Assembly: GCA_949293175.1 (NCBI GenBank)
Contig: CASFCI010000002.1
Span: 27,765 to 91,764, forward strand
Direction: 5' to 3'
Origin: an uncultured bacterium
GTDB lineage: Bacteria; Bacillota_I; Bacilli_A; RFN20; CAG-826
Length of the DNA stretch: 64,000 nt
Shown: positions 9,967 to 56,978 of the stretch, in pieces
How positions within the stretch are numbered: position 1 is the stretch's first letter
Layout of the letters: every line of letters begins with the position of its first letter
Made by a program: the position numbers and the translations under genes
The notes under the pieces: model-generated
The model's database searches: none
What the model was told of the DNA's origin: nothing
The model's input: only the letters and a program-made list of their open reading frames with translations

Positions 9967-9976
9967 GTTTTTCTCC

Positions 9977-15742: not shown

Positions 15743-15887
15743 AAGTCTCCTATCTTATATGCGATTTCTATGAAACCGCTTTCACAAAGTATTTTATTTA
15801 TCCGATAAATGGCCGTCAATGGGTAATGAAATCGATTTCTTAGGAATCAATCGGGAAACAATAAAGAGGTTTCTTTCTTCCTAGGAA

Positions 15888-21097: not shown

Positions 21098-21180
21098 GCC
21101 AAAATTATAGCAAAGCAAGCCGTGCCTCTTTAAGTTTTATGGTCGGTTAGGCCGCCTAACCCCGTTCTTTAAAGCGGCTG

Positions 21181-24364: not shown

Positions 24365-25209
24365 CCGAGCTCGAGCAAGCCAGGCGGATCGCCGCAAAGA
24401 TAGGGGACGAGGTGGAGATTAAGCCCCTCTTTGGCGGCACGAGCAACGCCATCTTCGCCTCGGATGGTTTCGTTTACCGGATAAAGCGGCCCCATCAGGT
24501 CGATGAGATCGATTCGCCAGAGCGCGAGATGCTCGCGGTCGACCTCTCGATGGGCTGCCCCTGCCTGCCGGAGGTGGTTTACTTCGATGGGCGCGGGAAC
24601 AAGGCCGAAAGGCGCCTAAAGGGCATCACCGTGAGCCAGAAGGGCGTCGACGAGGCGGATTTCCCCGCGATAATCAAGGCCATCGAGCAATTGCACGCCA
24701 TGCCGGAATCCGAATACTCATTCAACCTCGTGGAGCGCTATCGGCAATACAAAGACCATTCCGGAATAAAGGGATGCATCTCCCCTTTCGAACGCAGCGT
24801 GATGGCCTACGCCTTCCGCCGGATCGAGCAGTTCCCCCGCCGCCTTTCGCACAATGACCTATGGGGCGGGAACATCCTAATCGACGGCGGGCAGGCCAAG
24901 CTCATCGACCTCGAGTTCGCCTCCACCGCCCCCGAGGTTTTCGACTACCTCTCCTTCGTTGAGGAGAACGACCTGCCGCTAGAAAAGGCCAGGCGGTTCT
25001 TTGAGCTCTCCGGACTCCAGATGGACTTCGACGATTTCGCGCTGCTCAGCTACTCGCTCGACATCATCTGGGCCTACTGGGCCCTATGCCGGGAGAAGGA
25101 AACGGGCAAAGGCAAAGACATCGCAAAGGCAAAACTAAGGCGGCTATATAGAGGGCGGGCCATCATAAAGGCCCGGCTCGGCTATTACGTCGACCTCATC
25201 GCCGACTGA
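24361..25209 (+). CDS. Phosphotransferase-family protein (APH / choline kinase-like fold)
   Basis: HNDLWGGNILID is the Brenner HxDxxxxN motif and IDLEFA is the DxE motif. The start overlaps the upstream stop as ATGA. Confidence 0.6.
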   Translation: MTELEQARRIAAKIGDEVEIKPLFGGTSNAIFASDGFVYRIKRPHQVDEIDSPEREMLAVDLSMGCPCLPEVVYFDGRGNKAERRLKGITVSQKGVDEADFPAIIKAIEQLHAMPESEYSFNLVERYRQYKDHSGIKGCISPFERSVMAYAFRRIEQFPRRLSHNDLWGGNILIDGGQAKLIDLEFASTAPEVFDYLSFVEENDLPLEKARRFFELSGLQMDFDDFALLSYSLDIIWAYWALCREKETGKGKDIAKAKLRRLYRGRAIIKARLGYYVDLIAD

Positions 25210-25732
25210 AGGTCTGGTCGTATTGGGATAGGCCATCCGAAATGGCCTGTTTGGCGGAGATGGCCCCCTCGTATCCTAGGACCTCGGTGTCCTTCCCCTC
25301 CTCAAGCTGCTTATACACCTTGAAGAAGTGGTCGATCTCCTTCGCGACGTGCTCTGGCAGATCGGACAAGGAACGGAAGGCGTTGTAGAAGGGGTCGTTG
25401 AAGGGTATGGCGATTATCTTGTAGTCCTTCCGCCCGCCGTCTTTCATGACCAGCATCCCGATTGGGTAGCACTTAACGAGCGCCAGCGGGATTATCGGGC
25501 CGGAGGAGAGTATCAACACGTCGAGAGGGTCCCCATCGTCGGCCCAGGTCTTGGGGATGAAGCCGTAGTTGTGCGGGTAATGGGTCGAGGTGAAGAGGAA
25601 CCGGTCGAGGATTAGGGCCCCCGACTCGTGGTCGATCTCGTATTTGGCCGAGCTTCCGGCGCTTATCTCGACGCAGGCGTAGAAGGCCTCCGGGGTCTGC
25701 GCGTCGCGCTTCACGGAATGTATTAGGTTCAT
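25196..25732 (-). CDS. ppa: Inorganic pyrophosphatase (family I)
   Basis: DGDPLDVLIL, the YPHNYGFIP motif, and a size of about 178 aa. Confidence 0.85.
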   Translation of the reverse strand: MNLIHSVKRDAQTPEAFYACVEISAGSSAKYEIDHESGALILDRFLFTSTHYPHNYGFIPKTWADDGDPLDVLILSSGPIIPLALVKCYPIGMLVMKDGGRKDYKIIAIPFNDPFYNAFRSLSDLPEHVAKEIDHFFKVYKQLEEGKDTEVLGYEGAISAKQAISDGLSQYDQTFSRR

Positions 25733-26876: not shown

Positions 26877-26895
26877 GTTTGATATAATCAAGGCG

Positions 26896-27666: not shown

Positions 27667-27705
27667 AAAAGGCCGAGTGCTCCCGGCCTTATCTCTTTCG
27701 CCGAT

Positions 27706-31511: not shown

Positions 31512-33349
<1,838 letters not shown>

Positions 33350-34165
33350 CTATCTTGAGCCGGAGACGACTTCGGTTATCTCCTGGGTGATGGCGGCCTG
33401 GCGGGCCTTGTTGTACTCGATGTTGAGCTTCTCGAGCAGCTCGTCGGCGTTGGTGTTGGCGGCGTCCATGGCGTTGCGCCGGCTGGATTGCTCGCATAAC
33501 GAGCATTCCTCCTTCAGCTCCACTAGCCTAAGGCTAAGCCAGGTGGCGAGAGCCTCGTCGCGGGAGGCTTGCTCGCTGGGCTCGATTATCGGCTTGACCT
33601 CGAAGGGGGGCTCTAGCTTGGGAAGCGGGAGCAGCACCTCCTCCGCGGGGTCGAAGCGGAGCGAGTTGATGTATTTGGTGTAGATGACGCGAAGCGAGGA
33701 TATCCTCCCCTCTCTCTTCATCTGCAGTAGGCGCTTGGCGGACTCGAGCAGGCTCCGCGGCGAGTCGAACATGGATTGCTCGCCCTCTAATAGCGGATAA
33801 CCTCCCTTCCCATACCTGGCCTTGGCCTTGGCCCCGATGGGTATCAATAGGTCGCCTTCGCGGTATTTGGAGCTTAGCAGGCGGAACATGCCTTGGTTGT
33901 AGGCCCCGCAGAGGCCGAGGTCGCTAGAGAACACTATGTAGGCGCGCTTCCCCTCGCCCTCCTCTAGCAGCGGCTCGTCGAGGCTATATGCCCTCACGGC
34001 GTCTAGGAAAGCGCGGCTCTCCGCGGAGGCGAAGCGGGCGAACTCGATCGCCTTCTTCTCCCGGAGCAGCTTGACCGAGGCGATCATCCCCATCGCGGAG
34101 GTGATCTTCTTGGTCGCGGCGATCGAGGCGATCCGCCGCTTTGTCTTGACTAGGTTCCCGGCCAT
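33350..34165 (-). CDS. atpG: F1 ATP synthase gamma subunit
   Basis: [25 protein letters not shown] is the canonical gamma N-terminus. The ATG overlaps the atpA stop as TGATG. The long N-terminal extension in the track ORF is not coding. Confidence 0.8.
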   Translation of the reverse strand: MAGNLVKTKRRIASIAATKKITSAMGMIASVKLLREKKAIEFARFASAESRAFLDAVRAYSLDEPLLEEGEGKRAYIVFSSDLGLCGAYNQGMFRLLSSKYREGDLLIPIGAKAKARYGKGGYPLLEGEQSMFDSPRSLLESAKRLLQMKREGRISSLRVIYTKYINSLRFDPAEEVLLPLPKLEPPFEVKPIIEPSEQASRDEALATWLSLRLVELKEECSLCEQSSRRNAMDAANTNADELLEKLNIEYNKARQAAITQEITEVVSGSR

Positions 34166-35673
34166 CAATCGACCTTCATGGCGAGGAACTCGTCGAGGGA
34201 GGCGAGTATGGAGTCGCTGTCGTCTTTGGACAGGTCCTTGCTCGAGTCGATCCGCTCGATGACCTCTTTCTTGGATGAGAGCAATTTGGCGTAGAAGTCG
34301 GATAGGAACCCGCTTAGCTTCTCGACCGGGTAGGAGTCGAGCTTGCCGGATTTGACGGAAAGCAGCTCCACCACCTGGCGGGACAGACAATATGGGTTGT
34401 ACTGGGCCTGCTTGAGGGTCTCCATAAGCACGGCGCCGTGGGCGAGGATCTTCTTGGTCGACTCGTCGAGGTCGGAGCCGAACTGGGAGAAGGAAAGCAT
34501 CTCGCGGTAGTTGGCGAGCTCGATCTTGAGCGACCCCGCCACCTTCTTCATGGCCTTGAACTGGGCGCTGGAGCCGACGCGGGACACGGAGAAGCCCGAG
34601 TCGATGGCCGGGCGCTGGCCGGCGTTGAAGTAGTCGGTGAGGAGGAATATCTGCCCGTCGGTGATCGAGATGATGTTGGTCGGGATGTAGGCGGAGATGT
34701 CCCCGGCCTGCGTCTCGACGATCGGGAGGGCGGTGATCGAGCCCCCGCCGTATTCCTTGCTCAATCGGCACGCCCTTTCGAGCAATCTCGAATGCAAATA
34801 GAAGATGTCGCCCGGATAGGCCTCGCGGCCCGGCGAGCGCTTTAGAAGCAAGGAAAGGGTGCGGTAGGCGACCGCGTGCTTGGACAGGTCGTCGAAGACG
34901 ATGAGCACGTCCTGGCCTTGCTCCATCCATTCCTCGGCCATCGCCATGGCGGCGAAGGGGGCGATGTAAAGAAGGGGCGCCGGCTCGGCGGAGGAGGCGT
35001 TGACCACGGTCACGTAGTCCATGCACCCGAGCTGGTGGAGCCGCTCAACCAAAGCGGCCACCGAGGAGTTCTTCTGCCCGATGGCGCAGTAGACGCACTT
35101 CACGCCCTTGCCCTTCTGGTTGATTATGGCGTCTAAGGCGATGGCGGTCTTGCCGGTCTGCCTATCGCCGATGATGAGCTCGCGCTGACCGCGGCCGATC
35201 GGGATCATGGCGTCTATTGCCTTGATGCCGGTCTCAAGCGGGGTGTCGACCGATTTCCTGGTCATGACCCCCGGGGCGATGCGCTCTATGGGCCTAGTTT
35301 TCTCGGTCTTTATCGGCCCCTTCTCGTCGATGGGAAGCCCGAGCGCGTTGACCACGCGGCCGAGCAATTCGTCGCCGACCCCGACCTCGGCGACCTTGCC
35401 GGTGCGCCGCACCTCGTCGCCTTCCTTGATGAGGTCGTCCTCGCCAAGCAACACGGCCCCGACGTCGTCCTCGTTGAGGTTCATCGCGAGGCCATAGACC
35501 CCGTGCGGGAAAAGCAGCAGCTCGCCGAGCATGGCTTTCTCCAGGCCATAGACGGTGGCGATGCCATCGCCCACCGATACCACGGTCCCGACGTCGTCTT
35601 GCTCCAGTTTGCTTCCATAGCCCTCGATCTGCTTCCTAAGCAGTGCCGAGAGCCCTTCGGTGTCTATCTTCAT
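34165..35673 (-). CDS. atpA: F1 ATP synthase alpha subunit
   Basis: [12 protein letters not shown]-loop. Its position is between atpH and atpG. Confidence 0.9.
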
Positions 35674-36206
35674 TTGGCGATGCCTCCTTCAAGTTTGGCC
35701 CGCAGCGATTCAAGCTGCCGGGCGAGGGTGTAGTCGAAGGTCTTTCCGTCGATGGCGACCTTCGCTCCGCCTAATAAGCGCGAGTCGACGATGTTCTTGA
35801 GCTTCGCCTTATACCCGATCCGTCCCCCCACGGCTGCTTCGAGCCTAGTAAGCGATTCGGGGTCGAGCGGCCTCGCCGAATAGGCGATGCCCTCCTTGAC
35901 GCCGAGTCTTCCGCGGACTAGCGATAGCAGGGCCTGCAGGAAGAGGGATAGCTTCCCGCCATACCCCTTCTTGGCGAGCAGCTTGATGGCGATCTGCAGC
36001 CTTTCGGGCAAAAAGCCCAGGGCTTCGCCGATGGCCTTATCCTTCTTGGCGAAGGCGATGTTCGGCGACCCGAGGAAGACGGCGAACGAATCGTCGCTCC
36101 CAAGTGCGGACAGCAGCGCCTCCGACCCTTGCTCGGCCGAGGTCAGGCTATCCTTGGGCAGCGACTCAAACGCCGCCTGGGCGAAGGCGAAGCAGACGCT
36201 ATCCAT
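35670..36206 (-). CDS. atpH: F1 ATP synthase delta (OSCP) subunit
   Basis: 178 aa, in operon position between atpF and atpA. Confidence 0.7.
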
Positions 36207-36777
36207 TGTGGTCTCCGAGCTTGTCGATCATCTCATCGAGCAGCTTCTGCTGGTCGACGTCGGTCACCTGCCGGCCGAGGATGGCGCTGCTGGCGGCGAT
36301 GGCGAGGTCGATGGCCTTCTGCCCGACCTCCTTCTCGGCCTGGCGCTTGCTCTCCTCTATCTCGGCGTCGGCGTCCTTCTTGGCCTTCTCGATGGCCTCC
36401 GCGGTGGCCTGCTTGCTGGCTATGGCCTCCCGGTTGGCCTGCTCCCTGGCCTCCGCGACGATGCGGGCGGCCTCCTTCTTGCCCTGCAGGATGGTCTCCT
36501 CCTTGTGGCTTTCGGCCTCCTTGGCCCTCGCTAGCGAGGCCTCCGACTCCCGGAGGTTGCCCTCGATGTAGTCGCGACGCCTTTTGATGAGGTTATGGAC
36601 CGGCTTGTAGGCGATGAAGAAGACGATGAGCAAAAGCACGACGAAGCCGAGCAGCTGGATCACGAAGTCGATCATCCCGTTGGGGAAGATCTTCGAGATG
36701 AAGTCGTCTTTGTCGAAGGGGGTTGAGTCCACCCCGGAGTCGCTCAATATGGCAAGGGATGCGAAAAGAAGTCTCAT
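36199..36777 (-). CDS. atpF: Fo ATP synthase b subunit, with a 34-aa hydrophobic N-terminal extension
   Basis: TM helix IDFVIQLLGFVVLLLIVFF, then a long charged coiled coil. The start at 36777 is preceded by AAAGGAG. Confidence 0.7.
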   Translation of the reverse strand: MRLLFASLAILSDSGVDSTPFDKDDFISKIFPNGMIDFVIQLLGFVVLLLIVFFIAYKPVHNLIKRRRDYIEGNLRESEASLARAKEAESHKEETILQGKKEAARIVAEAREQANREAIASKQATAEAIEKAKKDADAEIEESKRQAEKEVGQKAIDLAIAASSAILGRQVTDVDQQKLLDEMIDKLGDHNG

Positions 36778-36787
36778 CTTCGCTCCT

Positions 36788-37069
36788 TTAGAACATGCTG
36801 GGCAGGACGAAGATGATCAATATGGCGACGATCAAGGCGTAGATGGCGGTCGACTCGTCGAGGGCGACGGCCAATATCATGGTCGAGCGCAGCTTGCCGT
36901 ACATCTCCGGGTTGCGGGCGATCCCATCGATCGCGTGCGAGCAGATCCAGGCCTCGCCGATCGCGGAGAAGGTGCCGGTGCAGCAGCAGATGCCGGCCGC
37001 GAGGGCGACCAGCCCCATCTGGCTCGGGTCAGCGGCCAGGATGGACACCATGTTTGCTAGAAATCCCAT
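36788..37069 (-). CDS. atpE: Fo ATP synthase c subunit
   Basis: It has two TM helices, a GIARNPE loop, and an essential acidic residue in helix 2 (LDESTAI). It is preceded by AGGAGG. Confidence 0.85.
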   Translation of the reverse strand: MGFLANMVSILAADPSQMGLVALAAGICCCTGTFSAIGEAWICSHAIDGIARNPEMYGKLRSTMILAVALDESTAIYALIVAILIIFVLPSMF

Positions 37070-37080
37070 TTTCTTTCCTC

Positions 37081-37890
37081 CTATTGGGCTATGGGCGCTT
37101 CGCTATTCCCGCGGGCAAGCTGCCCAGAGGTCCCCATTATGTCCTCGTCCTCGGGCATCTCGGCGCCGATCCAAACGGCGTTGAGCGAGGCGAAGACCAG
37201 GGTCTGGACGAACCCGGAGAATAGGCTGAAGTAAAGGTTTAGGACCCCGATCGCGAACGGGGCGAGGAATATCTGGCCCCAGGGGCCGATGGCGCCGAAG
37301 ATGGCCATCGAGGCCGACTTGAGGGCCCAGTTGACGATGCCGATGATGACCGATCCGGAGATGCAGTTGCCGAACATACGCAGCGACGTGGAAACAATCG
37401 GCGTCCACATGGTCACCAGATTGATCGGCAGCCAGATCTTGAGCGGCTCGATGTAGCGATGGAAGTATCCGAGGTGCTGGTAGCGGAGCGCCGTGACCTG
37501 GATCAGGACGAACATCACCAAGGAAAGGGTGAAGGGAACGAGCAGGTAGTCGATGATCGAGGGCAACCCGAGCAGCGACCAGTTGAACGAGATGAATAGG
37601 TATACCCAAAGCCCGGCGAAGTAGCCCGGCCAGTTGCCGACGTTGCGGTGCCCCATCATCTCCGAGGTCCAATTGTCGAGGGAGGAGACGCCCATCTCGG
37701 CGAGCAGCAATATCCCCCGCGGCGCGACCTTGGGGTCGGCGCGCCTTGCCTTGATGCCGATCACTATGGCCAAGATGGCGATGATGGCCATCACCATCGC
37801 CGACGATATCACAGCGCCGGAGACGTCTAAGTCCCACCAGCGGTCGATCATCTGCGAGATCGGCGAGGAGGAATCAAGCAGCATGTTCAT
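37081..37890 (-). CDS. atpB: Fo ATP synthase a subunit
   Basis: Polytopic. It contains the conserved Arg-containing helix (...LALRLF-like region LRYQHLGYF / NLVTMW). Confidence 0.8.
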   Translation of the reverse strand: MNMLLDSSSPISQMIDRWWDLDVSGAVISSAMVMAIIAILAIVIGIKARRADPKVAPRGILLLAEMGVSSLDNWTSEMMGHRNVGNWPGYFAGLWVYLFISFNWSLLGLPSIIDYLLVPFTLSLVMFVLIQVTALRYQHLGYFHRYIEPLKIWLPINLVTMWTPIVSTSLRMFGNCISGSVIIGIVNWALKSASMAIFGAIGPWGQIFLAPFAIGVLNLYFSLFSGFVQTLVFASLNAVWIGAEMPEDEDIMGTSGQLARGNSEAPIAQ

Positions 37891-38326
37891 CGTCTTCGCC
37901 TTCTTTCCTAGATGGCTTTATCTTCCTGAAAAGCCCAATGGCGGATGAGGCCAAAGGCAGCGGGAGGTATCCCCCGATGACGCCCCAGACGTTGAGGTAA
38001 GGCCATTCGTATATGTAGGTAAGCAAAGCCGCCACGACGACCGCGGCGACCAGCAATAGGAAGCGCAATACGACGAAGACGACGGATAAGACCATCTTCC
38101 CCGCCTTCTGCTCCCCGGGCTTAAGCAAGGCCGAGGACGTAACCACTATCGACCAGTAGGTGAAGATGGCGACGGCGATGCCCAATAGCCATCCAAGCGG
38201 GACGCCGGGGTTGCCCAGGAAGAAGAAGCAGGAAAGCGCGAGAAAACCCACGATCCCGATTCCGGCAATGCAGAGCCCGGTCATCCAGTACTCGCTCTTC
38301 CTTATCTTCTGCAGCGCCTTTCCCAT
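37874..38326 (-). CDS. atpI: AtpI-like small membrane protein
   Basis: 150 aa with 4 TM helices, located immediately upstream of atpB. Confidence 0.45.
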   Translation of the reverse strand: MGKALQKIRKSEYWMTGLCIAGIGIVGFLALSCFFFLGNPGVPLGWLLGIAVAIFTYWSIVVTSSALLKPGEQKAGKMVLSVVFVVLRFLLLVAAVVVAALLTYIYEWPYLNVWGVIGGYLPLPLASSAIGLFRKIKPSRKEGEDDEHAA

Positions 38327-38335
38327 AACGGGGAT

Positions 38336-38365
38336 ATGTTAGGCACAGCGTGAGCAAAAAAGCAA
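38336..38365 (-). promoter_or_regulatory. Candidate atp-operon promoter: -35 TTGCTT, an 18-nt spacer, then -10 TAACAT
   Basis: Read on the minus strand between the pfk stop and atpI. Tentative. Confidence 0.3.
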
Positions 38366-38393
38366 ACAAAACGGGAGGCTTACCTTATAGGTA

Positions 38394-39593
38394 CTAGTCG
38401 CGTAGAAGCCTAAGCGATGCGACTTTGTAGATGCCCTCTTCGTAGGCGACGTCGACCTCGCCCTGGATCAGGGGGCGGAGGTAATCGCGGAAGCATTGAC
38501 TGAGCCCGTGGACGTTATGCAGGAACTCGGGCGGGATCTTCTTCTCGACGTTGGCGATGCCCTCGACCGATTTGAGCTCATATTCGACCTGGTACGGCTG
38601 ACTGCTGATCCTCCTGATGGCCACCATCTTGCCCGACTCCCCCGCGACTGCCGCCTTGCAGGCCACCCGGGCGCACTCCACGGCCTCATCGCGGTCGACC
38701 TTGGAGACCAGTATCGGGAAGGCGCGCTGCGGGAGGGAGAGCTCGATCGAGCGGGTCGGGAGCCCGAGGTTCTGCTCCACCCGGCGGGAAAGCGCGTCGG
38801 CCGCACCGCCGAGCTGGATGTGGCCGAAGGCGTCGACCCGGGCCGAGGAGGTGTCGCGGGGGAAGACGATGCCCTCGCTTATGGCGACCACGCAGTGCCC
38901 CTTGGCGTCGTGGACCTTCTTGACCTCCTTGTAGAACTCATCGAGGTCGAAGGCGTCCTCCGGCAGGTATATGAGGTCGGGGCGGTAAGGCGCGGGGAGG
39001 AGGTCGACCGAGGCGGTCAGCCAGCCGGCGTTGCGCCCCATCACCTCGACGACGAACACCTTGCCCTTCTTGTAGCAGGAGGCGTCGACGCAGACCGACT
39101 TGACGGTGTTTATGACGTATTTGGCGGCCGAACCGTAGCCGATGCAGTGGTCGGTCGCGGAGAGGTCGTTGTCGACCGTCTTGGGGACCCCGATGACCTT
39201 GACGTCCATGCCCTTGGAGGCGAATAGGCGCGAGAGCTTGGAGCAGGTGTCCATCGAGTCGTTGCCCCCGTTGACGAGGATGTAGCCTATGTCGTGCTTC
39301 CTAACGGTCTTGATTATCGATTGGTAGCGCTCGTCCTCGAGATCGGAGGGCAGTTTGTAGCGGGTAGAGCCCAGGGCCGCCCCCGGGGTCTGCAGCAGCA
39401 ATTCGATCTGCTCGGGGTCCTCCTTGCTTAGATCGGCGAGGTCGTCGTAAAGCAGTCCCTCGATGCCGTGCAGGCTCCCGAGGACCTTGCTTACCTCCTT
39501 ATGCTCCCCCGCTTCCTTTATCGCCCCGTATAGGGACGAGTTGATGACCGCGGTCGGTCCGCCCGACTGCAGGTACGCCAATGCTTTAGCCAT
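38394..39593 (-). CDS. pfk: 6-phosphofructokinase, long form, with a PPi-type active-site signature
   Basis: PFK fold (GGPTAVIN...GGNDS...PKTVDNDL). Asp at the Gly104-equivalent and Lys at the Gly124-equivalent positions are the residues reported to specify PPi use. The start MAKALAY is preceded by AAGGAG. Confidence 0.8.
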   Translation of the reverse strand: MAKALAYLQSGGPTAVINSSLYGAIKEAGEHKEVSKVLGSLHGIEGLLYDDLADLSKEDPEQIELLLQTPGAALGSTRYKLPSDLEDERYQSIIKTVRKHDIGYILVNGGNDSMDTCSKLSRLFASKGMDVKVIGVPKTVDNDLSATDHCIGYGSAAKYVINTVKSVCVDASCYKKGKVFVVEVMGRNAGWLTASVDLLPAPYRPDLIYLPEDAFDLDEFYKEVKKVHDAKGHCVVAISEGIVFPRDTSSARVDAFGHIQLGGAADALSRRVEQNLGLPTRSIELSLPQRAFPILVSKVDRDEAVECARVACKAAVAGESGKMVAIRRISSQPYQVEYELKSVEGIANVEKKIPPEFLHNVHGLSQCFRDYLRPLIQGEVDVAYEEGIYKVASLRLLRD

Positions 39594-39654
39594 GTCTGAC
39601 TCCTTATCTAGTAAAGCAGTATACACTAGAAGCAAGTCCGATGAACGCTAGATT

Positions 39655-39668
39655 TGTAAGCGGTTACA
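39655..39668. promoter_or_regulatory. cre (CcpA-binding catabolite responsive element) TGTAAGCGGTTACA
   Basis: Perfect match to the consensus TGWAANCGNTNWCA. It sits within a duplicated block of about 25 nt, AACGCT.G.TTTGTAAGCGGTTACA. Confidence 0.5.
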
Positions 39669-39791
39669 CAATCGGCTGGCAAATCAAAGAGAAAACCTCG
39701 CGCGCCATACTTAATTGGGCTCCATGTAGGGTAGAATAATGGCGTACCCGAATATCGGCCACTATGGCCGGTTCCGGGGAGGAGGTAGAAA

Positions 39792-39995
39792 ATGGAACAT
39801 TTCTTCATGCCGGTAATGAAAATGCAGGAAAGGCATCAGCAGGCGATCGGGCAGCCGGTGCCCGACGACGTCATGAAAGCCGCCAAGAAGGACCCGGAGA
39901 ACTGGTACGTCGAATGGTATAAAGGCCGGGAACCCCACTATTTCATCAACCTCAACGCGATCGACTACGTCCACGCCCTCATAATAGAAGACTAG
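39792..39995 (+). CDS. Small hypothetical protein (67 aa)
   Basis: The ATG is preceded by GGGAGGAGG. It lies between two cre copies. Confidence 0.4.
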   Translation: MEHFFMPVMKMQERHQQAIGQPVPDDVMKAAKKDPENWYVEWYKGREPHYFINLNAIDYVHALIIED

Positions 39996-40033
39996 TCTCC
40001 GTCTCAGCCGAGAAGTTCGATAAACGCTTGCTT

Positions 40034-40047
40034 TGTAAGCGGTTACA
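40034..40047. promoter_or_regulatory. cre TGTAAGCGGTTACA, second copy, 37 nt upstream of the udk-like ATG
   Basis: Identical 14-mer and flanks to the 39655 copy. Confidence 0.5.
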
Positions 40048-40083
40048 TATTAAGATAGTCGGCCAGGGGTCATAGGAGGTCCT

Positions 40084-41733
40084 ATGCCATTTTCCGTCAC
40101 CATCGGCAACAACACGACAACGTATCAGAAGAAGATGAGCCTGCTTGAGATACTAAACGGCTCCAACGAAGACAAATCGATCATCGCCGCCCGGGTCAAC
40201 AACCGGGTCAGGGAATTGACCTATGAGGTCAACTACGACTGCGAGATACAGTGGCTCACCGTCAAGGACGGCGACGCCACCAAGACCTACGAGGCGTCGC
40301 TGCGCTTCATCACCGCGATGGCCTTCCGCCGCGCCTACCCCGATCTGAAGATAAGGTTCGCCTACAACGTCTCCCGCTGCGTCTCGATCCACCTGCTCAC
40401 CCCGGGCTACACCGCCAACACGGCGATGCTGCTCAAGGTCAGCCACGAGATGGAGCGCATCATCGCCTCCGACTACCCCCTCAAGCGGATGGTCGTCCCC
40501 ATTGAGAAGGCCCGCGAGGTATATGAGCAGCTCGGCTACGAGGACAAGCTCGCCCTTTTGCCCTACCGCCCGGAGAAGACCGCCCACCTCTATGAGTGCG
40601 ACGGCTTCTACGACTACATGTACTCCCACATGGTCCCCTCGACCGGCTACATCAAGAAGTACAAGCTCCGCCTCTACGCGCCGAGCTTCCTATTGCAGTA
40701 CCCGCGCGCCGAGGCTGGCGGCGAGATCCCGCCCTTCCAGGACGCCCCGACCTTCGGCAGGGTCCTCAAGGAATCCCACGACTGGGCCAAGATCGTCGGC
40801 TCCGACACGGTCGCCGGCATCAACAAGTCCATCGAGCGCCGCGGGCCAATCGAGTTCATCAACCTCTGCGAGGCGCGCCACAACCGGATGCTTTGCGAGC
40901 TCGGACAGATGATCGAGGACTCCATCGACGAGGTGAGCCTGATCTGCATCGCCGGGCCCTCAAGCTCAGGCAAGACCACCTTCGCCAACCGCCTCCGCAT
41001 CGAATTGCTCGCCCGCGGAATCAACCCGATCCGCATCTCGATCGACGACTATTACCTCGAGAAGGACAAGATCCCGAAGGGGGAGAACGGGGAGATCGAC
41101 CTCGAGTCCATCGAGGCGCTCAACATCCCGCTTTTCAACCAGAACATGGTCGACCTCATCGCCGGGGAGACCGTCACATTGCCGAAGTTCGACTTCCAGT
41201 CCGGCAAGTCGGTCCCGGGCAGGACGCTCCACGTCGAGCGCGGCCAGCCCATCATCATCGAGGGCATCCACGCTCTCAACGACCGGATGACCGTCGACAT
41301 CCCGAAGTCGGCCAAGTTCAAGATCTTCATCGCCCCCCAGGCCCAGATCAACCTCGACGACCACACCCCGCTCTCGCTCACCGACCTGCGCCTCATCCGC
41401 CGGATCGTGCGCGACTACAAGTTCCGCAACGCCTCGGCCGAGGAGACCATCGGCATGTGGCCTAGCGTCCGGGCGGGCGAGTTCAAGTGGATCTACGACA
41501 CCCAGGAGGGCTCCGACTACGTCTACAACTCGATGCTCAGCTACGAGCTCCCGGTCATGAAGAAATACGCCTTGCCGCTGCTTAAGGGGATCGAGGAGAC
41601 ATCTCCATGCTTCCCCACCGCCATGCGGCTGGTGAGGATGCTCAAGTTCTTCGTCGACATGGACGACCAATGGGTACCATCGAACTCGCTGATGAGGGAA
41701 TTCATCGGCGGCTCGTGCTACGAGGACGTGTGA
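40084..41733 (+). CDS. Uridine/cytidine kinase-like P-loop kinase fused to an N-terminal TGS (ThrRS/GTPase/SpoT-like) domain
   Basis: GPSSSGKTTFANRL P-loop, the IIIEGIHAL motif and a beta-grasp-like N-terminus. Preceded by GGAGG. Confidence 0.6.
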   Translation: MPFSVTIGNNTTTYQKKMSLLEILNGSNEDKSIIAARVNNRVRELTYEVNYDCEIQWLTVKDGDATKTYEASLRFITAMAFRRAYPDLKIRFAYNVSRCVSIHLLTPGYTANTAMLLKVSHEMERIIASDYPLKRMVVPIEKAREVYEQLGYEDKLALLPYRPEKTAHLYECDGFYDYMYSHMVPSTGYIKKYKLRLYAPSFLLQYPRAEAGGEIPPFQDAPTFGRVLKESHDWAKIVGSDTVAGINKSIERRGPIEFINLCEARHNRMLCELGQMIEDSIDEVSLICIAGPSSSGKTTFANRLRIELLARGINPIRISIDDYYLEKDKIPKGENGEIDLESIEALNIPLFNQNMVDLIAGETVTLPKFDFQSGKSVPGRTLHVERGQPIIIEGIHALNDRMTVDIPKSAKFKIFIAPQAQINLDDHTPLSLTDLRLIRRIVRDYKFRNASAEETIGMWPSVRAGEFKWIYDTQEGSDYVYNSMLSYELPVMKKYALPLLKGIEETSPCFPTAMRLVRMLKFFVDMDDQWVPSNSLMREFIGGSCYEDV

Positions 41734-41880: not shown

Positions 41881-43332
41881 TTACTCGGCGGCGTAGCTCG
41901 GCAAAGTCGTCGAGTTAATGTCGGAGAGGGTGAAGCGGAGGTAGTAATCGACACCTTGGATCGAGAAGGAGGCCAATACGGTCTCGATCGCGGTCTTATC
42001 CTCGTTGAGGGTGACGACCAGGCGGTCGGTCGAGCCCTCTAGGGCGCCCGACTGCACGCCGAGCATCCCGTTATCGAAGTAGGAGCCGAGTCCGCTGACG
42101 ACCAACTCCTCGGCTTCGTAGGTCCTATCGCCGGTCTTCTTGAACAAGGCCGGGTTGATGGAGGAGAAGTCGGGGCCGAGGCCCTCGAAGGAATCGATGG
42201 TGTAGACCGCGGAGCTCGACAGGGTCACGACGTGCCAATCCCATCCGAGGTCGCCGTAGTCGTACTGATAGACGTGGTAGAGCTTGTCGGAGGGGTCATA
42301 GACCGCCTTGTAATCGTAGTCGTCGCCACCCTGGTAGGGATGTTCGTCCCCGGGGGCGGAGCGCTGGGCGTAATAGGCCATGTCGTCGCGGATGAAGTAG
42401 CCGGTGGTCCAGGTGGTGCGCTCGCCATCCCAAGAGGAGAGGAACTCCTTGTTGTAGGTGTAGGAGTCGACGCCGTCGAGGCACTTGAGGGCCGCGGCTA
42501 GGTCGGGGTTGTCGTTGGCGTAGGGCTGCAGATGGGGGACCGGCTGCTCGCCTAGGCTCCGGTCGTAGGTGACGGTGAACTCATTCGTCCTGGTGAAGCG
42601 GCCCTCCTCGCGGAGCTCCGAGATCTCGAAGGCCAATGAGTCGATCCCGCCGTCCTCGCCGAGGTTGAGGGCGATGTCGTCGACGTAGTTGATCGAGGTC
42701 CCGCCATAGCAGGTGACCACGAACTGCGCCTTGGCGCCCTGCAGGTGCAGGCTGCCGTCTTCTTCCTCGATGATGTCGCTGGCCCTGATGTAGTCCCAGG
42801 GGTTGCGGAATAGCGAGTCGAAGGCATACGGGAGGTAGACCCCGGTGGTGTCGTTGTAGTCGGAGAGGTAGGAGCTATTGACCTCGTTGTCGATGGTGAT
42901 CGACTCCTTGATCGCGAGCCCGGTCTCCTCGTCGCGGAAGTAATAGGCCTTCGGGTCGGAGTAGCCCCACTCGGTCGATTCGACCTTGTCGGTGAGCTTG
43001 TAGTCGTAGGCATTGTAGCTGTACTTCTCGGTGTAGGCCCGCACCGCGCCGTATTGGTGGACGATGTCGTAGGTCTTTCCCTGATGGATGCCGACCTCAA
43101 GCGGGTCGTCGCGGTAGACGTCGGTGGCCATCTCGATGTGGGCCCCGTGGGTCTGATGCTGGAGCGAGGCGAGGGCCTTCTGGGCCTTCTGGGTGCCAAC
43201 CGGCAGCTCCGGGAGGGTCACTTCGCCGCCGTCCTCGGAGGAAGATCCCGGCGTCGAGGAGGAACCATTACCCCCGCAGGCGACGAGGGAGAGGGCCATC
43301 AAAGGGGCCAATATGAGCAATTTAGCGTTCAT
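41881..43332 (-). CDS. Lipoprotein, hypothetical. Paralogous to 43345..44604.
   Basis: Lipobox LVACGG. The shared block DNPDLAAALKCL matches DNPELKSALQGL. Confidence 0.5.
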   Translation of the reverse strand: MNAKLLILAPLMALSLVACGGNGSSSTPGSSSEDGGEVTLPELPVGTQKAQKALASLQHQTHGAHIEMATDVYRDDPLEVGIHQGKTYDIVHQYGAVRAYTEKYSYNAYDYKLTDKVESTEWGYSDPKAYYFRDEETGLAIKESITIDNEVNSSYLSDYNDTTGVYLPYAFDSLFRNPWDYIRASDIIEEEDGSLHLQGAKAQFVVTCYGGTSINYVDDIALNLGEDGGIDSLAFEISELREEGRFTRTNEFTVTYDRSLGEQPVPHLQPYANDNPDLAAALKCLDGVDSYTYNKEFLSSWDGERTTWTTGYFIRDDMAYYAQRSAPGDEHPYQGGDDYDYKAVYDPSDKLYHVYQYDYGDLGWDWHVVTLSSSAVYTIDSFEGLGPDFSSINPALFKKTGDRTYEAEELVVSGLGSYFDNGMLGVQSGALEGSTDRLVVTLNEDKTAIETVLASFSIQGVDYYLRFTLSDINSTTLPSYAAE

Positions 43333-43344
43333 TTTCTTTCCTCC

Positions 43345-44604
43345 TTATTCAGCGAAGCTGGTATCGAGCCAGCTCGGCATCGCGGTCGAGCCGACCTCGG
43401 AGAAGCTCGCGGTGATCGAATACGGGCCGTACTGGAAGTCGTAGTAGCCGAGGCTCACCTCGGACATGGTCTCGCCATCTAGGCTCACGTAGGCATAGAA
43501 GGGCTCGATCGCAGAGACCGAGAAGGCGGATGGCACGAGGTCGCGGCTTAATAGCGGCACGGCGTCGGGCAGGAAGGCGTAGACGCCCTCGGACTGCTTC
43601 TGCAGCACCTCCGGCGCGATCTTGGAGTAGTTCGGCAGGTAGTTGGCGATCTGGTAGTTGATGCCTATGGTCGACCAAGAGGAGGTCGAGGCGGAGTAGC
43701 GGTAGCCGGTCGCCCTGCCGCCGGCGCCCTGGACGTAGTAGGTATCGCCGTCCACCGGGTAGGGGAGGCTCGGGTCGCCGTGGATGTAGAGGCTATCGCC
43801 GGAATAGTAATAGGTGTAGCCGAGGCGGATGTCGTTCTCCGCGATGGTCACGGTGTAGTTGGTGCCAAGCCCCTGCAAGGCGGACTTCAGCTCGGGGTTG
43901 TCCTGCGTGCCGACCGAGATGCGGCCGAAGCTCTCCTTGAGGATCTCGAAGGAGAGGTCGACGGTCAGGGTGGACTCGCCGATGAACATGCCCGAGGTGC
44001 TCTCGATGGCGTCGGGGCGGATTGGGCAGGTGAACTCCAGGGTGACCTTGGAATCGACCGGGTTCTCCAGGTCGTAGCCGGAGAAGGTGGCCGAGGTGAC
44101 CGGGAAGTCGAGCCCGAAGTAGGCGTTGAGCATCAGCTCGGCCTTCTGGCTCGAGAGGGCGGATCCCTGTATGTCGGAGGGGCTGATGTAGTCGAAGGGG
44201 TCGTAATAGGTCGAGGCGTAGACCAGGTCCATGCCGAAGGTCTTGTCGACGACCGACTCGAGCTGGTTCTGGTAGTTGAGGGTGTCGTGGTAGGAATACC
44301 CGTCGCTCCCCTCGTAGTGGATGGTGTCGGAGGCCAGCCCATGGTCGCGGATGGCCTCGCGGTCCTCGCCGTCGAAGCTCACCGTGCCGTAGTCGCGGTC
44401 GACGGAGTAGGTGGCGACGCTATTAAGCGACTCCAGACCCTCGCCGTAGTCGGTGGTGAGGACGGCGCTGCCCTTCACGTTATAAGGCAGCTGGAACAGC
44501 CGCAGGTACTCCGGCCCTTCCTCGGCGGAGGAGGGGAGGGCGGCGGAGGTCGCGGCTAGGGGCAATAGAAGCGGCAGCCCCAATGCCAGATATGTCTTTC
44601 TCAT
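43345..44604 (-). CDS. Secreted protein, hypothetical, of the same family
   Basis: SPase I-type signal peptide MRKTYLALGLPLLLPLAATSAA. Confidence 0.5.
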   Translation of the reverse strand: MRKTYLALGLPLLLPLAATSAALPSSAEEGPEYLRLFQLPYNVKGSAVLTTDYGEGLESLNSVATYSVDRDYGTVSFDGEDREAIRDHGLASDTIHYEGSDGYSYHDTLNYQNQLESVVDKTFGMDLVYASTYYDPFDYISPSDIQGSALSSQKAELMLNAYFGLDFPVTSATFSGYDLENPVDSKVTLEFTCPIRPDAIESTSGMFIGESTLTVDLSFEILKESFGRISVGTQDNPELKSALQGLGTNYTVTIAENDIRLGYTYYYSGDSLYIHGDPSLPYPVDGDTYYVQGAGGRATGYRYSASTSSWSTIGINYQIANYLPNYSKIAPEVLQKQSEGVYAFLPDAVPLLSRDLVPSAFSVSAIEPFYAYVSLDGETMSEVSLGYYDFQYGPYSITASFSEVGSTAMPSWLDTSFAE

Positions 44605-46100
44605 CCTTGGTAGCTCCCTAGATATAGATCGAAGGTGTCGAGGACGCCATCGAGGTTGTGGGCGGTGAGGTCGGTGGTCCCGAAGTCGGAGTAGGACACG
44701 GTGCTCACGCAGTCGCCGCCGAAGGCCTCGGAGGCGAAGTATAGCTTGAAGACCGGGTATCCCGCCTCATCGATGCTGACCTCAAGCCGGTCGAAGCCGA
44801 AGGCAAGGGTGGCCGTCGATTCGACGTACCAGCTGCTCATGCGGGTCGGGTAGTCGCCGACGCCGAAGACGGCGGCCATGATGTCGAAGCAGAAGTAGTG
44901 GTCGATGTACGGGAAATCGGCCAGATCGAACACGTAGCCCTCATCGGCCTTCTCGAAGAAGGCGGTCGAAAGCGACTGGATGAAGGGGACGGCTCCGTTG
45001 TCGACGGTGTAGGCGTCGGCCGATAGCGTCGCGGCGTAGCCAGTCCCGCCGTTGGTGCCCGGGGTCACGCCGATCTGGTAGTATCCGTCGGCCCCCGCCG
45101 CTTCCGCGGTGAAGTAGGCCAGTCCGGTGTAGGTCGTGCCATAGGAGGCATCGGTCAAGGGCAGGTCGGTGATCATGAGCTTGCGCCCGCCGAACTTGCC
45201 GGCCAGGTCGTAGTATGACTTGTACTCGCCGCGGTTATCGATCTCGGTCCCATCGACCAAGGTCGTCTTGACGTTGGTGGTGAAGTTCAGCCCCTGGACG
45301 CCATCGCGGAGCTTCTCGAAGGAAGCGGTGAGCGTGGAGAGGTCCTCCTCGCCAAGCGAGGGGGTATACGGGGTGAGCGGGGTCACCGCGTCGATGGCGG
45401 AGAGCTCGACGAGGTAGTCCTCGGCCATGTAGCCGTAGGCGTCGGCGAGGACGTTGGCGAACTTCGCCTGCTTCGGGGTGCCGTTGGCGTCAACGGTCAG
45501 TTCGAAGCCCTCGATCAGCTGACGCGAGGTGAGGTAGTCGAAGCTGTACGGGTTAATGGTATATAGGAATTTCGACATCCCCGGGGAGATGAGGGCGGTC
45601 AATAGCTCGGTCCCCTTCAGGGTGTAGCCATCCTCGGCGGTCTCCACGGTGAAGTAGCGCGAGAAGTTGGAGGCGGTTATGCCGGCGAGGGCCTTGTAGC
45701 CGGAATCGTAGTTGCCGGCGAAGGCGACCGGGAGGTTGGAGTCGTCGGTGACCTCGGTCGACTTGACGACGTTGTCGAGCCCAAGGGCGTTGAGCATGAC
45801 GTAGCCCTCGGGGGAGGAGGTGACGTCGGACTGCAATAGCGGCATCTTGGTGCCGGTGAGGCAGAGGTCGCTGTGCCTGGCGGTGGAGCTGACCTCATCG
45901 GTGGCGGTGAAGGTCGCGCCCCCGAAGGCGGCGTAGCGCGGGGTGATGGTCGCCACCGACTTGATCGGGGCGGCGAAGAAGGAGGCGATGCTGCTTATCT
46001 GCGCATCGGTCAGCCCCACTTCCTCGGCTGTCGCGCCGGTGGCGGAGCAGCCGCAAAGGGCGAGCCCGCAAAGGGCAATGGCGGAATTTATCTTCTTCAT
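44601..46100 (-). CDS. Lipoprotein, hypothetical
   Basis: Lipobox LALCGCS. ATGA overlap with the downstream gene. Confidence 0.5.
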   Translation of the reverse strand: MKKINSAIALCGLALCGCSATGATAEEVGLTDAQISSIASFFAAPIKSVATITPRYAAFGGATFTATDEVSSTARHSDLCLTGTKMPLLQSDVTSSPEGYVMLNALGLDNVVKSTEVTDDSNLPVAFAGNYDSGYKALAGITASNFSRYFTVETAEDGYTLKGTELLTALISPGMSKFLYTINPYSFDYLTSRQLIEGFELTVDANGTPKQAKFANVLADAYGYMAEDYLVELSAIDAVTPLTPYTPSLGEEDLSTLTASFEKLRDGVQGLNFTTNVKTTLVDGTEIDNRGEYKSYYDLAGKFGGRKLMITDLPLTDASYGTTYTGLAYFTAEAAGADGYYQIGVTPGTNGGTGYAATLSADAYTVDNGAVPFIQSLSTAFFEKADEGYVFDLADFPYIDHYFCFDIMAAVFGVGDYPTRMSSWYVESTATLAFGFDRLEVSIDEAGYPVFKLYFASEAFGGDCVSTVSYSDFGTTDLTAHNLDGVLDTFDLYLGSYQG

Positions 46101-47652: not shown

Positions 47653-47666
47653 TGTAAGCGCTTACA
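47653..47666. promoter_or_regulatory. cre-like perfect palindrome TGTAAGCGCTTACA in a divergent promoter region
   Basis: Matches TGWAANCGNTNWCA. It is flanked by A7 and T7 homopolymer runs. A -35-like TTGCAC lies 11 nt downstream. Confidence 0.45.
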
Positions 47667-49350: not shown

Positions 49351-49370
49351 AGCGCGAAAGGCAAAACGAA

Positions 49371-49400
49371 AACCCAGGAGCGATCCTGGGTTTTATTGTT
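49371..49400. terminator. Bidirectional rho-independent terminator
   Basis: The hairpin CCCAGGA-GCGAT-CCTGGG is followed by TTTTATTGTT. It is also preceded by an A-rich run on the opposite strand. Confidence 0.55.
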
Positions 49401-56894: not shown

Positions 56895-56978
56895 AGATTG
56901 ATTCTATACCCGCGCAGGGGGCCGACTCTAGAAGCGGCTGAAGAGAATACCGGACGGACATTGTGCTTTAATATTCTC

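What the first reader, a model, noticed from the sequence alone, without database searches (positions are those of the whole stretch)
38394..39593. Phosphofructokinase carries the Asp/Lys pair diagnostic of PPi-dependence, despite a family-I pyrophosphatase in the same window
The active-site loop reads GGNDS instead of GGDGS, and the downstream loop reads PKTVDNDL instead of PGTIDNDI. Asp at the Gly104-equivalent and Lys at the Gly124-equivalent are the residues reported to switch PFK from ATP to PPi use. Asn at the Asp103-equivalent is additionally unusual. This suggests PPi-based glycolysis, which fits a reduced, fermentative lifestyle. The co-occurrence with Ppa (25196..25732) raises a PPi-budget question.
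Basis: established knowledge. Interest (0 to 1): 0.5.

Follow-up and report, generated by a model that had tools for sequence, protein, structure and literature searches.

The report
Ordinary pyrophosphate-type phosphofructokinase gene
This gene from an uncultured gut Bacillota bacterium encodes a phosphofructokinase whose active-site residues match enzymes shown to use pyrophosphate instead of ATP; it belongs to a large, already named family, so it is a routine prediction and not a discovery.

Summary
The gene lies on the minus strand at 38394..39593 and encodes 399 aa. NGGNDSMDT and PKTVDNDL are present. Alignments to the Geobacillus and Borrelia enzymes place N111, D112, T116 and K138 at E. 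coli positions 103, 104, 108 and 124.

Asp104, a non-glycine at 108 and Lys124 are the three published PPi-donor signatures. The protein scores 446 bits on NCBIfam NF010675 (PPi-PFK, cutoff 273). It is closest in sequence and predicted fold to the PPi-PFK structures 3K2Q and 3HNO. It is 44% identical to Clostridium thermocellum Pfp, a biochemically proven PPi-PFK with the same GGNDSMDT/PKT motifs. A 97% identical MAG protein is already named PPi-PFK in UniRef.

Asn103 is not unusual here: 143 of 148 unbiased family representatives have it.

The family-I pyrophosphatase (25196..25732, minus strand) is intact. A homologue lies near the same gene in four relatives, so the co-occurrence is real. 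It touches a known open issue, the source of PPi for PPi-driven glycolysis, but this cannot be resolved from one window. An ATP-PFK elsewhere in the genome is not excluded.

Verdict: a new member of a known kind, of low interest. No enzymology was done.

The parts
38394..39593 (-). pfp: predicted PPi-dependent 6-phosphofructokinase, 399 aa, stop codon included
   Evidence: ORF and translation. PF00365 E=6e-57. NF010675/PRK14072 at 445.9 bits against a cutoff of 273. 3K2Q and 3HNO at E~1e-80. AF2 model pLDDT 91 with TM 0.85-0.87 to 3K2Q/3HNO.
39246..39269 (-). Codons for GGNDSMDT (residues 109-116). N111, D112 and T116 correspond to E. coli positions 103, 104 and 108.
   Evidence: Alignments to 3PFK and 1KZH. 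Signature positions from PMC12203962 Table S3. Invariant in 39 homologues.
39162..39185 (-). Codons for PKTVDNDL (residues 137-144). K138=124, T139=125, D141=127 (catalytic base), D143=129.
   Evidence: Alignments. The role of Asp127 is from PMC12203962.
39600..39605 (-). Shine-Dalgarno sequence AAGGAG, six nt upstream of ATG 39593
   Evidence: Read directly from the sequence.
39655..39668 (.). Palindromic cre-type (CcpA/LacI-family) operator consensus TGTAACCGCTTACA, 62 nt upstream of the pfp start
   Evidence: Exact match to TGWAANCGNTNWCA. Four sites in the window against 0.01 expected, all in intergenic upstream regions. Function is inferred, not shown.
40034..40047 (.). Second identical cre-type palindrome, 37 nt upstream of the divergent udk/PRK-like gene
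40084..41733 (+). Divergent neighbour: 549-aa protein with a C-terminal uridine-kinase/PRK-family domain. It is syntenic with pfp in the Bacilli relatives.
   Evidence: PF00485. Weak udk matches below cutoff. Synteny in L003-L012, L014-L017, L022 and L025.
31512..38326 (-). F1Fo ATP synthase operon directly downstream of pfp on the same strand (atpI-like, atpB, E, F, H, A, G, D, C). The gap between pfp and the atpI-like gene is 67 nt, and no terminator-like site was found.
   Evidence: Pfam families of the called genes on the identical contig L001. No terminator in 37800..40200. Synteny is conserved.
25196..25732 (-). ppa: family-I soluble inorganic pyrophosphatase, 178 aa
   Evidence: PF00719 E=3e-56. 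Best PDB match is 1UDE, a Pyrococcus PPase, at E=2e-50 over the full length. The residues equivalent to the E. coli active site are all present by inspection of that alignment: E22, K30, E32, R44, Y56, D66, D68, D71, D98, D103, K105, Y140, K141. It falls below the NF002317 equivalog cutoff (178.9 against 200).

Best explanation
The gene encodes a pyrophosphate-dependent 6-phosphofructokinase (Pfp, EC 2.7.1.90) of the roughly 400-aa PRK14072 / 3HNO-3K2Q / C. thermocellum-Pfp type.

Mechanism, inferred by homology:
- Asp141 (=Asp127) acts as the general base on the 1-OH of fructose 6-phosphate.
- Asp112 (=104) occupies the place where the alpha-phosphate of ATP would sit, and Thr116 (=108) fills the ribose/adenine cleft. 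Nucleotides are therefore excluded and PPi binds in the beta/gamma-phosphate register.
- Lys138 (=124) salt-bridges the PPi.

The reaction F6P + PPi <-> FBP + Pi is readily reversible, so the enzyme can serve both glycolysis and gluconeogenesis. Like its clostridial relative, it probably also phosphorylates sedoheptulose 7-phosphate. Asn111 (=103) is a family-wide substitution that is compatible with PPi-dependent activity.

Shown here: sequence, residue equivalences, family membership, fold, conservation and gene context. Inferred: donor specificity, reversibility, S7P activity and the physiological role.
For: Residue equivalences come from two independent alignments and match the published signatures: D104/K124/non-Gly108 (PMC12203962 section 9 and Table S3; PMC11609450; PMC10339645).

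NF010675 'diphosphate--fructose-6-phosphate 1-phosphotransferase' scores 445.9 bits against a cutoff of 273. Every other PFK model falls below its cutoff.

The best solved structures are the PPi-PFKs 3K2Q and 3HNO, by sequence (E 1e-80) and by predicted fold (TM 0.85-0.87, against about 0.66 for ATP-PFKs).

A metagenome ORF (L086) matches both published cloning primers of C. thermocellum Clo1313_1876 at 19/19 nt each. It is 44% identical to the window protein over its full length and carries NGGNDSMDTC and PKTIDNDL. That enzyme is experimentally PPi-dependent and also uses S7P.

The catalytic and F6P-site residues are kept: T139, D141, D143, R78, M185-G186-R187, E240, R252 and H258.

In 12 relatives the same gene type sits beside a paralogue. 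Eleven carry GGDG[ST]xxG and ten of those also PGTIDND (the 12th reads GGGGSLAG). This fits donor specialisation between the two genes.

A 97% identical MAG protein (HIU45335.1) is already named PPi-PFK in UniRef.
Against: There is no enzymology for this protein or for any close (>50% identical) relative.

The published PPi consensus GG(D/E)D(S/T) is not met at position 103, where this protein has Asn.

The family HMM does not by itself discriminate the donor. 23 of 148 representatives have Gly at 104, and NCBI still names at least two of them PPi-PFK.

An intact soluble PPase in the same genome argues against PPi as a major energy currency (PMC8085960).

Of the residues in the Borrelia beta-hairpin that help bind PPi, only a few are conserved even in C. 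thermocellum Pfp. They were not examined here.
Confidence: 0.85

Rival explanations
1. The enzyme is PPi-dependent, but carrying glycolytic flux is not its main job. An ATP-PFK elsewhere in the genome would do that. This enzyme would then work mainly in the sedoheptulose-1,7-bisphosphate variant of the pentose phosphate pathway, in gluconeogenesis (FBP -> F6P), and/or as a PPi buffer alongside Ppa.
For: These four roles are documented for PPi-PFKs (PMC12203962). C. thermocellum Pfp uses S7P. T. gondii PPi-PFK is essential for PPi homeostasis rather than for flux. An intact Ppa is present and is retained near pfp in four relatives. An ATP-signature pfkA lies adjacent to this gene type in 12 more distant relatives. 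Ribulose-phosphate 3-epimerase is present in the window.
Against: No second PFK lies within the 64-kb window, nor within 10 kb of pfp in any Bacilli relative. A cre-type operator upstream of pfp fits a sugar-catabolic gene. The genome-wide content of pfkA, tal and fbp is unknown.
Confidence: 0.35
2. Despite the D/K signature, the enzyme uses a nucleotide (ATP, GTP or ADP) or polyphosphate as donor. Asn103 would mark a changed metal or donor site.
For: Donor specificity has changed repeatedly in PFK-A, and ADP-dependent members were recognised only in 2024. Position 103 departs from the published PPi consensus. Position 104 flips between D and G many times within this family.
Against: The characterised C. 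thermocellum Pfp has the identical GGNDSMDT motif and is PPi-dependent. Asp at 104 blocks the alpha-phosphate site both sterically and electrostatically. Thr at 108 blocks the adenine/ribose cleft.
Confidence: 0.05
3. The gene is a decaying or catalytically dead PFK homologue. Loss of Asp103, a residue at the Mg-phosphate site in E. coli PFK according to my own knowledge of the 1PFK structure, would have inactivated it.
For: Only the Asp-to-Asn change at position 103.
Against: The ORF is intact and has a good SD sequence. The protein is 97% identical in other MAGs, and its 90% cluster has 61 members. Catalytic residues are invariant. Asn103 is shared by 143 of 148 family representatives, including an active characterised enzyme.
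Confidence: 0.02

Closest known systems
Clostridium (Acetivibrio) thermocellum Pfp, Cthe_0347 / Clo1313_1876 (PPi-PFK, 415 aa)
   Same: It has the same length class and is 44% identical over the full length. The donor-site motifs are identical: NGGNDSMDT, and PKT(I/V)DNDL, which differs at a single residue (I for V). Both have GH(I/A)QLGG, with Leu in place of E. coli Arg252. It is experimentally PPi-dependent and also phosphorylates S7P.
   Different: The C. thermocellum genome lacks a soluble PPase and has an H+-PPase, whereas this organism encodes a family-I Ppa. The gene neighbourhoods differ: here pfp sits directly upstream of the atp operon. The window protein is 16 aa shorter, from a mesophilic gut organism, and uncharacterised.
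PPi-PFK crystal structures 3HNO (Nitrosospira multiformis) and 3K2Q (Marinobacter aquaeolei)
   Same: They are the best sequence matches (E 1e-79 to 1e-80) and the best fold matches (TM 0.85-0.87, 37% identity). They share D at 104, T at 108, K at 124 and PKTVDNDL.
   Different: They have Gly, not Asn, at position 103 (GGGDS). They come from Proteobacteria. Both are apo structures without an associated publication.
Borrelia burgdorferi PPi-PFK (1KZH/2F48), the 'long' 555-aa type
   Same: It has the same donor-site logic. D177, N181 and K203 align without gaps to D112, T116 and K138.
   Different: It has GGDD (Asp at 103), N- and C-terminal extensions and an 83-residue helical insertion. The match is only E 5e-14 and limited to the N-terminal domain. 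It belongs to a different NCBIfam model: the long-type PPi-PFK models score only 74-81 bits here.
E. coli PfkA / G. stearothermophilus PFK (canonical ATP-PFK)
   Same: Same PFK-A fold and catalytic residues: D127, D129, T125, R72, R171, E222, R243 and H249.
   Different: They have GGDGSxxG and PGTIDND, with Gly at 104, 108 and 124. They are about 320 aa, allosteric and ATP-dependent. Identity is about 23-28%.
Trypanosoma brucei PFK (ATP-dependent, 'PPi-like')
   Same: It has Lys at the 124-equivalent position (K226) in PKTIDNDL.
   Different: It has Gly at 104 and at 108 (GGDGTQRG) and uses ATP. This shows that Lys124 alone does not predict PPi use.

Membership tests
PFK-A (phosphofructokinase) superfamily, Pfam PF00365 | Significant match to the PFK domain model over its full length | tested here: met
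   193.6 bits against a cutoff of 30.9; residues 5-278 match profile positions 2-271 of 277.
PFK-A superfamily | Catalytic base Asp127, plus Asp129, Thr125 and the MGR (Arg171) and GH (His249) F6P-site motifs | tested here: met
   D141, D143, T139, M185-G186-R187 and H258 align to these positions. All are invariant in 39 homologues.
PFK-A superfamily | Two-Rossmann PFK fold | tested here: met
   AF2 model with pLDDT 91 and pTM 0.90. Foldseek probability is 1.00 to many PFK structures.
PPi-PFK subfamily NCBIfam NF010675 (PRK14072) | Whole-protein score above the curated cutoff | tested here: met
   445.9 bits against 273, covering profile positions 3-405 of 416. The next best model (TIGR02483) scores 167.8 against a cutoff of 430.
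PPi-dependent PFK (donor signature) | Asp at the E. coli Gly104 position | tested here: met
   D112 aligns to G104 of 3PFK and to D177 of 1KZH.
PPi-dependent PFK (donor signature) | Lys at the E. coli Gly124 position (PKTIDxD) | tested here: met
   K138 aligns to G124 and to K203. Caveat: it is not diagnostic on its own, because of T. brucei.
PPi-dependent PFK (donor signature) | A residue larger than Gly at the E. coli Gly108 position | tested here: met
   T116 aligns to N181 of 1KZH and equals T119 of 3HNO/3K2Q.
PPi-dependent PFK (donor signature) | Published consensus GG(D/E)D(S/T): an acidic residue at position 103 | tested here: not met
   The residue is Asn111. The same departure occurs in the characterised C. 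thermocellum Pfp and in 143 of 148 family representatives. 3HNO and 3K2Q have Gly there. The consensus is therefore too narrow and does not exclude this protein.
PPi-dependent PFK | PPi-dependent, nucleotide-independent phosphorylation of F6P in vitro | not testable with these tools
   Requires expression and an enzyme assay.
Family-I soluble inorganic pyrophosphatase (the Ppa at 25196..25732) | PF00719 domain match and conserved acidic/Lys/Tyr active-site residues | tested here: met
   189.7 bits against 23.5. Full-length alignment to 1UDE at E 2e-50, with all E. coli active-site equivalents present by inspection.
NCBIfam NF002317 inorganic diphosphatase equivalog | Score above the curated cutoff | tested here: not met
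   178.9 bits against a cutoff of 200. It is a diverged member closest to archaeal (Pyrococcus/Thermococcus) PPases.

The most novel reading that the evidence does not exclude
In this small-genome gut Bacillota lineage (Ca. Alloenteromonas and relatives), the PPi-type enzyme may be the only phosphofructokinase even though the cell keeps an active soluble pyrophosphatase. Glycolysis would then depend on a strong PPi-generating cycle that has not been identified, or on tight control of Ppa. That would make these organisms a natural test case for the unsolved question of where PPi for PPi-driven glycolysis comes from.
Probability: 0.15. Interest if true: 0.45.

Novelty: new member of a known kind. 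Interest (0 to 1): 0.15.

Why it matters
It matters little for enzymology. The prediction follows rules that are already published and already built into curated annotation models, and a 97% identical database entry already carries the PPi-PFK name.

It has modest value for gut-microbiome metabolic reconstruction. These uncultured Bacilli should be modelled with a reversible PPi-linked PFK step, which could save up to one ATP per hexose if PPi comes free, and possibly with a transaldolase-independent pentose phosphate pathway.

The conserved co-occurrence with a soluble PPase is a reminder that finding a PPi-PFK gene does not by itself establish PPi-driven glycolysis. The source of PPi is unresolved even in the model organism C. 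thermocellum (PMC8863071).

Tried and rejected
- Full-text search for 'GGNDS' together with phosphofructokinase gave 0 papers. A search for Gly104/Gly124 gave only irrelevant papers. A search for Asp103 with PFK found nothing usable, so the role of Asp103 in E. coli PFK rests on my own knowledge. A search for RFN20/Enteromonas metabolism found nothing.
- The count of GGNDSMDT in 82 of 82 related loci was rejected as evidence. The search for related loci had used NGGNDSMD as one of its search patterns, so the count is circular. It was replaced by the word-free representative search.
- My first regular expression picked up the N-terminal SGGPTSVIN loop instead of the active-site motif. This was corrected.
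- The promoter/terminator scan of 37800..40200 found nothing. Rfam found nothing in the whole window.
- Pfam scans of 37 further window ORFs found no PPDK, H+-PPase, transaldolase, FBPase or second PFK.
- The strict cre motif was found upstream of pfp only in L005 and L025, among the 28 related loci examined. No cre-like site lies upstream of ppa.
- The taxonomy lookup of 'Candidatus Enteromonas' failed. NCBI lists the genus as Candidatus Alloenteromonas, under Bacillota incertae sedis.
- The alternative TTG start at 39635 was rejected.

Full report
OBSERVATION. The stated coordinates hold an intact gene, but it lies on the minus strand. Translating the plus strand gives stop codons. The minus strand gives a 399-aa protein beginning MAKALAYLQSGGPTAVIN. 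The start at ATG 39593 is preceded by AAGGAG at a spacing of six nt, and the resulting length matches homologues that are mostly 396-402 aa.

The two motifs are present as NGGNDSMDT (residues 108-116) and PKTVDNDL (137-144). The phmmer alignment to G. stearothermophilus PFK, whose numbering equals that of E. coli at these sites (Table S3 of PMC12203962), places N111 at D103, D112 at G104 and K138 at G124. A gapless alignment to Borrelia burgdorferi PPi-PFK places N111, D112, T116 and K138 on D176, D177, N181 and K203. D177, N181 and K203 are the three residues that the structural literature names as donor determinants. The refutation condition 'positions are offset' is therefore not met. All four residues are invariant in an alignment of 39 homologues of 58-79% identity.

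FAMILY PLACEMENT. Pfam sees a full-length PFK domain. Among NCBIfam models only NF010675 (PRK14072, 'diphosphate--fructose-6-phosphate 1-phosphotransferase') is passed, at 445.9 bits against a cutoff of 273. The ATP-PFK models, the mixed-substrate group III model, the long PPi-PFK models and the Thermotogales PPi-PFK model all fall far below their cutoffs.

The best solved relatives are the two structural-genomics PPi-PFKs, 3K2Q and 3HNO (E about 1e-80). An AlphaFold2 model (pLDDT 91, pTM 0.90) superposes on them with TM 0.85-0.87. ATP-PFKs give a query-normalised TM of about 0.66.

The exact sequence is already in public collections. [quoted passage not shown] NCBI taxonomy lists a genus Candidatus Alloenteromonas under Bacillota incertae sedis. 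The closest species-representative genomes are an unnamed uncultured-bacterium bin (CASFTG010000001.1) and Ca. Alloenteromonas pullistercoris, both at 78%. The window has 58.8% G+C.

LINK TO A CHARACTERISED ENZYME. The JBC paper on clostridial PFKs prints the cloning primers for C. thermocellum Clo1313_1876. An exact scan of metagenome contigs with the gene-specific part of the forward primer returned seven loci. In L086 the ORF that starts at that primer is 415 aa and ends exactly at the gene-specific part of the reverse primer, 19/19 nt each. I take it to be C. thermocellum pfp or a near-identical allele.

It is 44% identical to the window protein over the full length. It carries NGGNDSMDTC and PKTIDNDL, and GHAQLGG where the window protein has GHIQLGG. 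That enzyme is experimentally PPi-dependent, with a Km for F6P of 0.075 mM. It also phosphorylates sedoheptulose 7-phosphate. The authors explicitly attribute nucleotide exclusion to Asp at 104 and Thr at 108. The window protein thus shares its complete donor-site signature with a proven PPi-PFK.

IS ASN103 UNUSUAL? Against the published consensus it is: ATP GGDGSxxG, ADP GGDGSxxI and PPi GG(D/E)D(S/T) (PMC11609450). Within the family it is not. 119 of the 120 closest homologues have GGNDS.

An apparent 82 of 82 in related genome loci had to be discarded, because the locus search itself used NGGNDSMD as a pattern. The word-free HMMER search of 1.84 billion cluster representatives is unbiased. 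Among its 150 best hits (33-61% identity, most below 50%), 143 of the 148 sequences with a residue at that position have Asn at 103. 3HNO and 3K2Q have Gly there. So an acidic residue at 103 is dispensable in this branch of PPi-PFKs, and the published consensus is too narrow.

The same sample shows that position 104 does vary: Asp in 122 and Gly in 23 (GGNG[ST], with Lys124 kept and position 108 not Gly). In a rough neighbour-joining tree the Gly104 forms fall in about ten small groups. Two of them (Moorella WP_258359502.1 and Acutalibacter WP_322200919.1) are nevertheless named PPi-PFK by NCBI. Family membership alone therefore does not settle the donor, and the residue check is needed. The window protein passes it.

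CONTEXT. pfp is followed after 67 nt, on the same strand, by an atpI-like gene and the complete F1Fo ATP synthase operon. No terminator-like site lies between them. Upstream and divergent are a 67-aa ORF and a 549-aa protein with a uridine-kinase/PRK-family domain. The arrangement udk-like <-> pfp -> atp is conserved in more than a dozen Bacilli relatives.

A perfect cre-type palindrome, TGTAACCGCTTACA, lies 62 nt upstream of the pfp start. An identical one lies 37 nt upstream of the udk-like gene. Four such sites occur in the window, all upstream of genes, against 0.01 expected by chance. This suggests CcpA/LacI-type carbon control of pfp, but that is inference. The strict motif recurs upstream of pfp in only two related loci.

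The window holds no second PFK, PPDK, membrane PPase, transaldolase or FBPase. In 12 more distant relatives (Christensenellales, other Clostridia, Acholeplasmataceae and other Mycoplasmatota), an ATP-type pfkA paralogue lies directly next to the GGNDSMDT/PKT gene. Eleven of these carry GGDG[ST]xxG, and ten of those also carry PGTIDND; the twelfth reads GGGGSLAG. Two paralogues side by side with opposite signatures is good comparative support for donor specialisation. It also warns that an ATP-PFK may exist elsewhere in this genome.

PPA AND THE PPi BUDGET. The gene at 25196..25732 (minus strand) is a full-length family-I pyrophosphatase (PF00719 E 3e-56). It is closest to the Pyrococcus and Thermococcus enzymes (E 2e-50). 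All active-site equivalents are present by inspection: E22, K30, E32, R44, Y56, D66, D68, D71, D98, D103, K105, Y140 and K141. It falls just below the NCBIfam equivalog cutoff.

Homologues of 53-60% identity lie within 10 kb of pfp in four related loci: L010, L011, L015 and L022. The co-occurrence is therefore old and retained. No cre-like site precedes ppa.

The literature frames the issue. PPi-linked energy conservation needs soluble PPase activity to be low or absent (PMC8085960). C. thermocellum lacks a soluble PPase. Its PPi source remains unidentified after a quadruple knockout (PMC8863071). On the other hand most organisms have a PPase. PPi-PFKs also serve gluconeogenesis, the SBP pathway and PPi homeostasis (PMC12203962; T. 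gondii).

MECHANISM. By homology:
- Asp141 is the general base.
- Asp143, Thr139, Arg78, Arg187, Glu240, Arg252 and His258 form the conserved phosphoryl-transfer and F6P site.
- Asp112 blocks the alpha-phosphate position and sets the register of PPi.
- Thr116 fills the ribose/adenine cleft.
- Lys138 binds PPi.

The Arg252-to-Leu replacement (L261), shared with C. thermocellum Pfp, lies in the sugar 6-phosphate site. It may relate to acceptance of S7P, but the authors of that work consider this inconclusive.

I put 0.85 on PPi as the donor. I put about 0.5 on this being the main glycolytic PFK, and about 0.35 on a mainly non-glycolytic role. These are not exclusive at the enzyme level.

VERDICT. 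The 'unusual Asn' is a family trait, and the pathway-level claim remains open. This is an uncharacterised but routine member of a curated, structurally and biochemically known family. Interest is low (0.15).

Noticed in passing
P0166, P0205, P0215, P0216, P0218, P0229 and 17 more (representatives): 23 of 148 family representatives have Gly instead of Asp at position 104 (GGNG[ST]). They keep Lys124 and a non-Gly residue at 108. They scatter over about ten small groups in a rough NJ tree. At least two (Moorella WP_258359502.1 and Acutalibacter WP_322200919.1) are still named PPi-PFK by NCBI. Their donor is unknown, and these names may be over-propagated.
   Followed up: partly
L027, L028, L031, L035, L038-L041, L045, L047, L051, L072 (within about 250 nt of the pfp homologue): In Christensenellales, other Clostridia, Acholeplasmataceae and other Mycoplasmatota MAGs, an ATP-type pfkA paralogue (48-54% identical to the G. 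stearothermophilus PFK) lies directly beside the GGNDSMDT/PKT-type gene. Eleven carry GGDG[ST]xxG and ten of those also PGTIDND. This pairing is absent in the window and in its Bacilli relatives.
   Followed up: partly
window 15771-15784, 39655-39668, 40034-40047, 47653-47666: There are four perfect palindromic matches to the cre/CcpA operator consensus TGWAANCGNTNWCA, against 0.01 expected. All are intergenic and upstream of genes: the GH81 surface glycosidase, pfp, the udk-like gene, and the divergent promoter region of a cluster of unknown genes. A LacI-family regulator gene lies at 25941-26876.
   Followed up: partly
window 1688-4489 (-): A 933-aa ORF has third-position G+C of 0.38, against 0.72-0.92 for every other gene in the window. 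It has no Pfam or NCBIfam match. It is compositionally foreign and probably recently acquired.
   Followed up: no
window 41881-47575 (-) and 47713-49350 (+): Four consecutive ORFs of 483, 419, 499 and 491 aa, plus a divergent 545-aa ORF, have no Pfam match. One has a weak, below-cutoff match to an M6 metalloprotease domain. The cluster has a cre-type site in its promoter region. Other ORFs without a Pfam family: 12-1676, 4633-5331, 8641-10032, 9977-10537, 10937-12553, 15933-17450, 20438-21118, 29068-30288, 56889-57926 and 62432-63961. Of these only 29068-30288 was also scanned with NCBIfam, giving faint ATP-grasp matches.
   Followed up: no
window 37874-38326 (-): The 150-aa membrane protein between pfp and atpB has a faint, below-cutoff similarity to the MG406 family (E 9.5e-4). 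It has no Pfam match.
   Followed up: no
window 40084-41733 (+): A 549-aa protein has a uridine-kinase/PRK-family domain only in residues 280-480 and an unassigned N-terminal region of about 280 aa. It is divergently paired with pfp in 17 related loci, mostly Bacilli (57-85% identity), which suggests a functional link.
   Followed up: no
window 54632-56888, 49351-50272, 26877-27705: These stretches of 0.8-2.3 kb have no ORF with the genome's typical codon-position G+C pattern, and no Rfam match at gathering threshold anywhere in the window.
   Followed up: no
window 25196-25209: The 3' end of ppa overlaps by 14 nt the 3' end of a convergent APH-family phosphotransferase gene (24361-25209, +). 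ppa is divergent from the LacI-family regulator gene.
   Followed up: no
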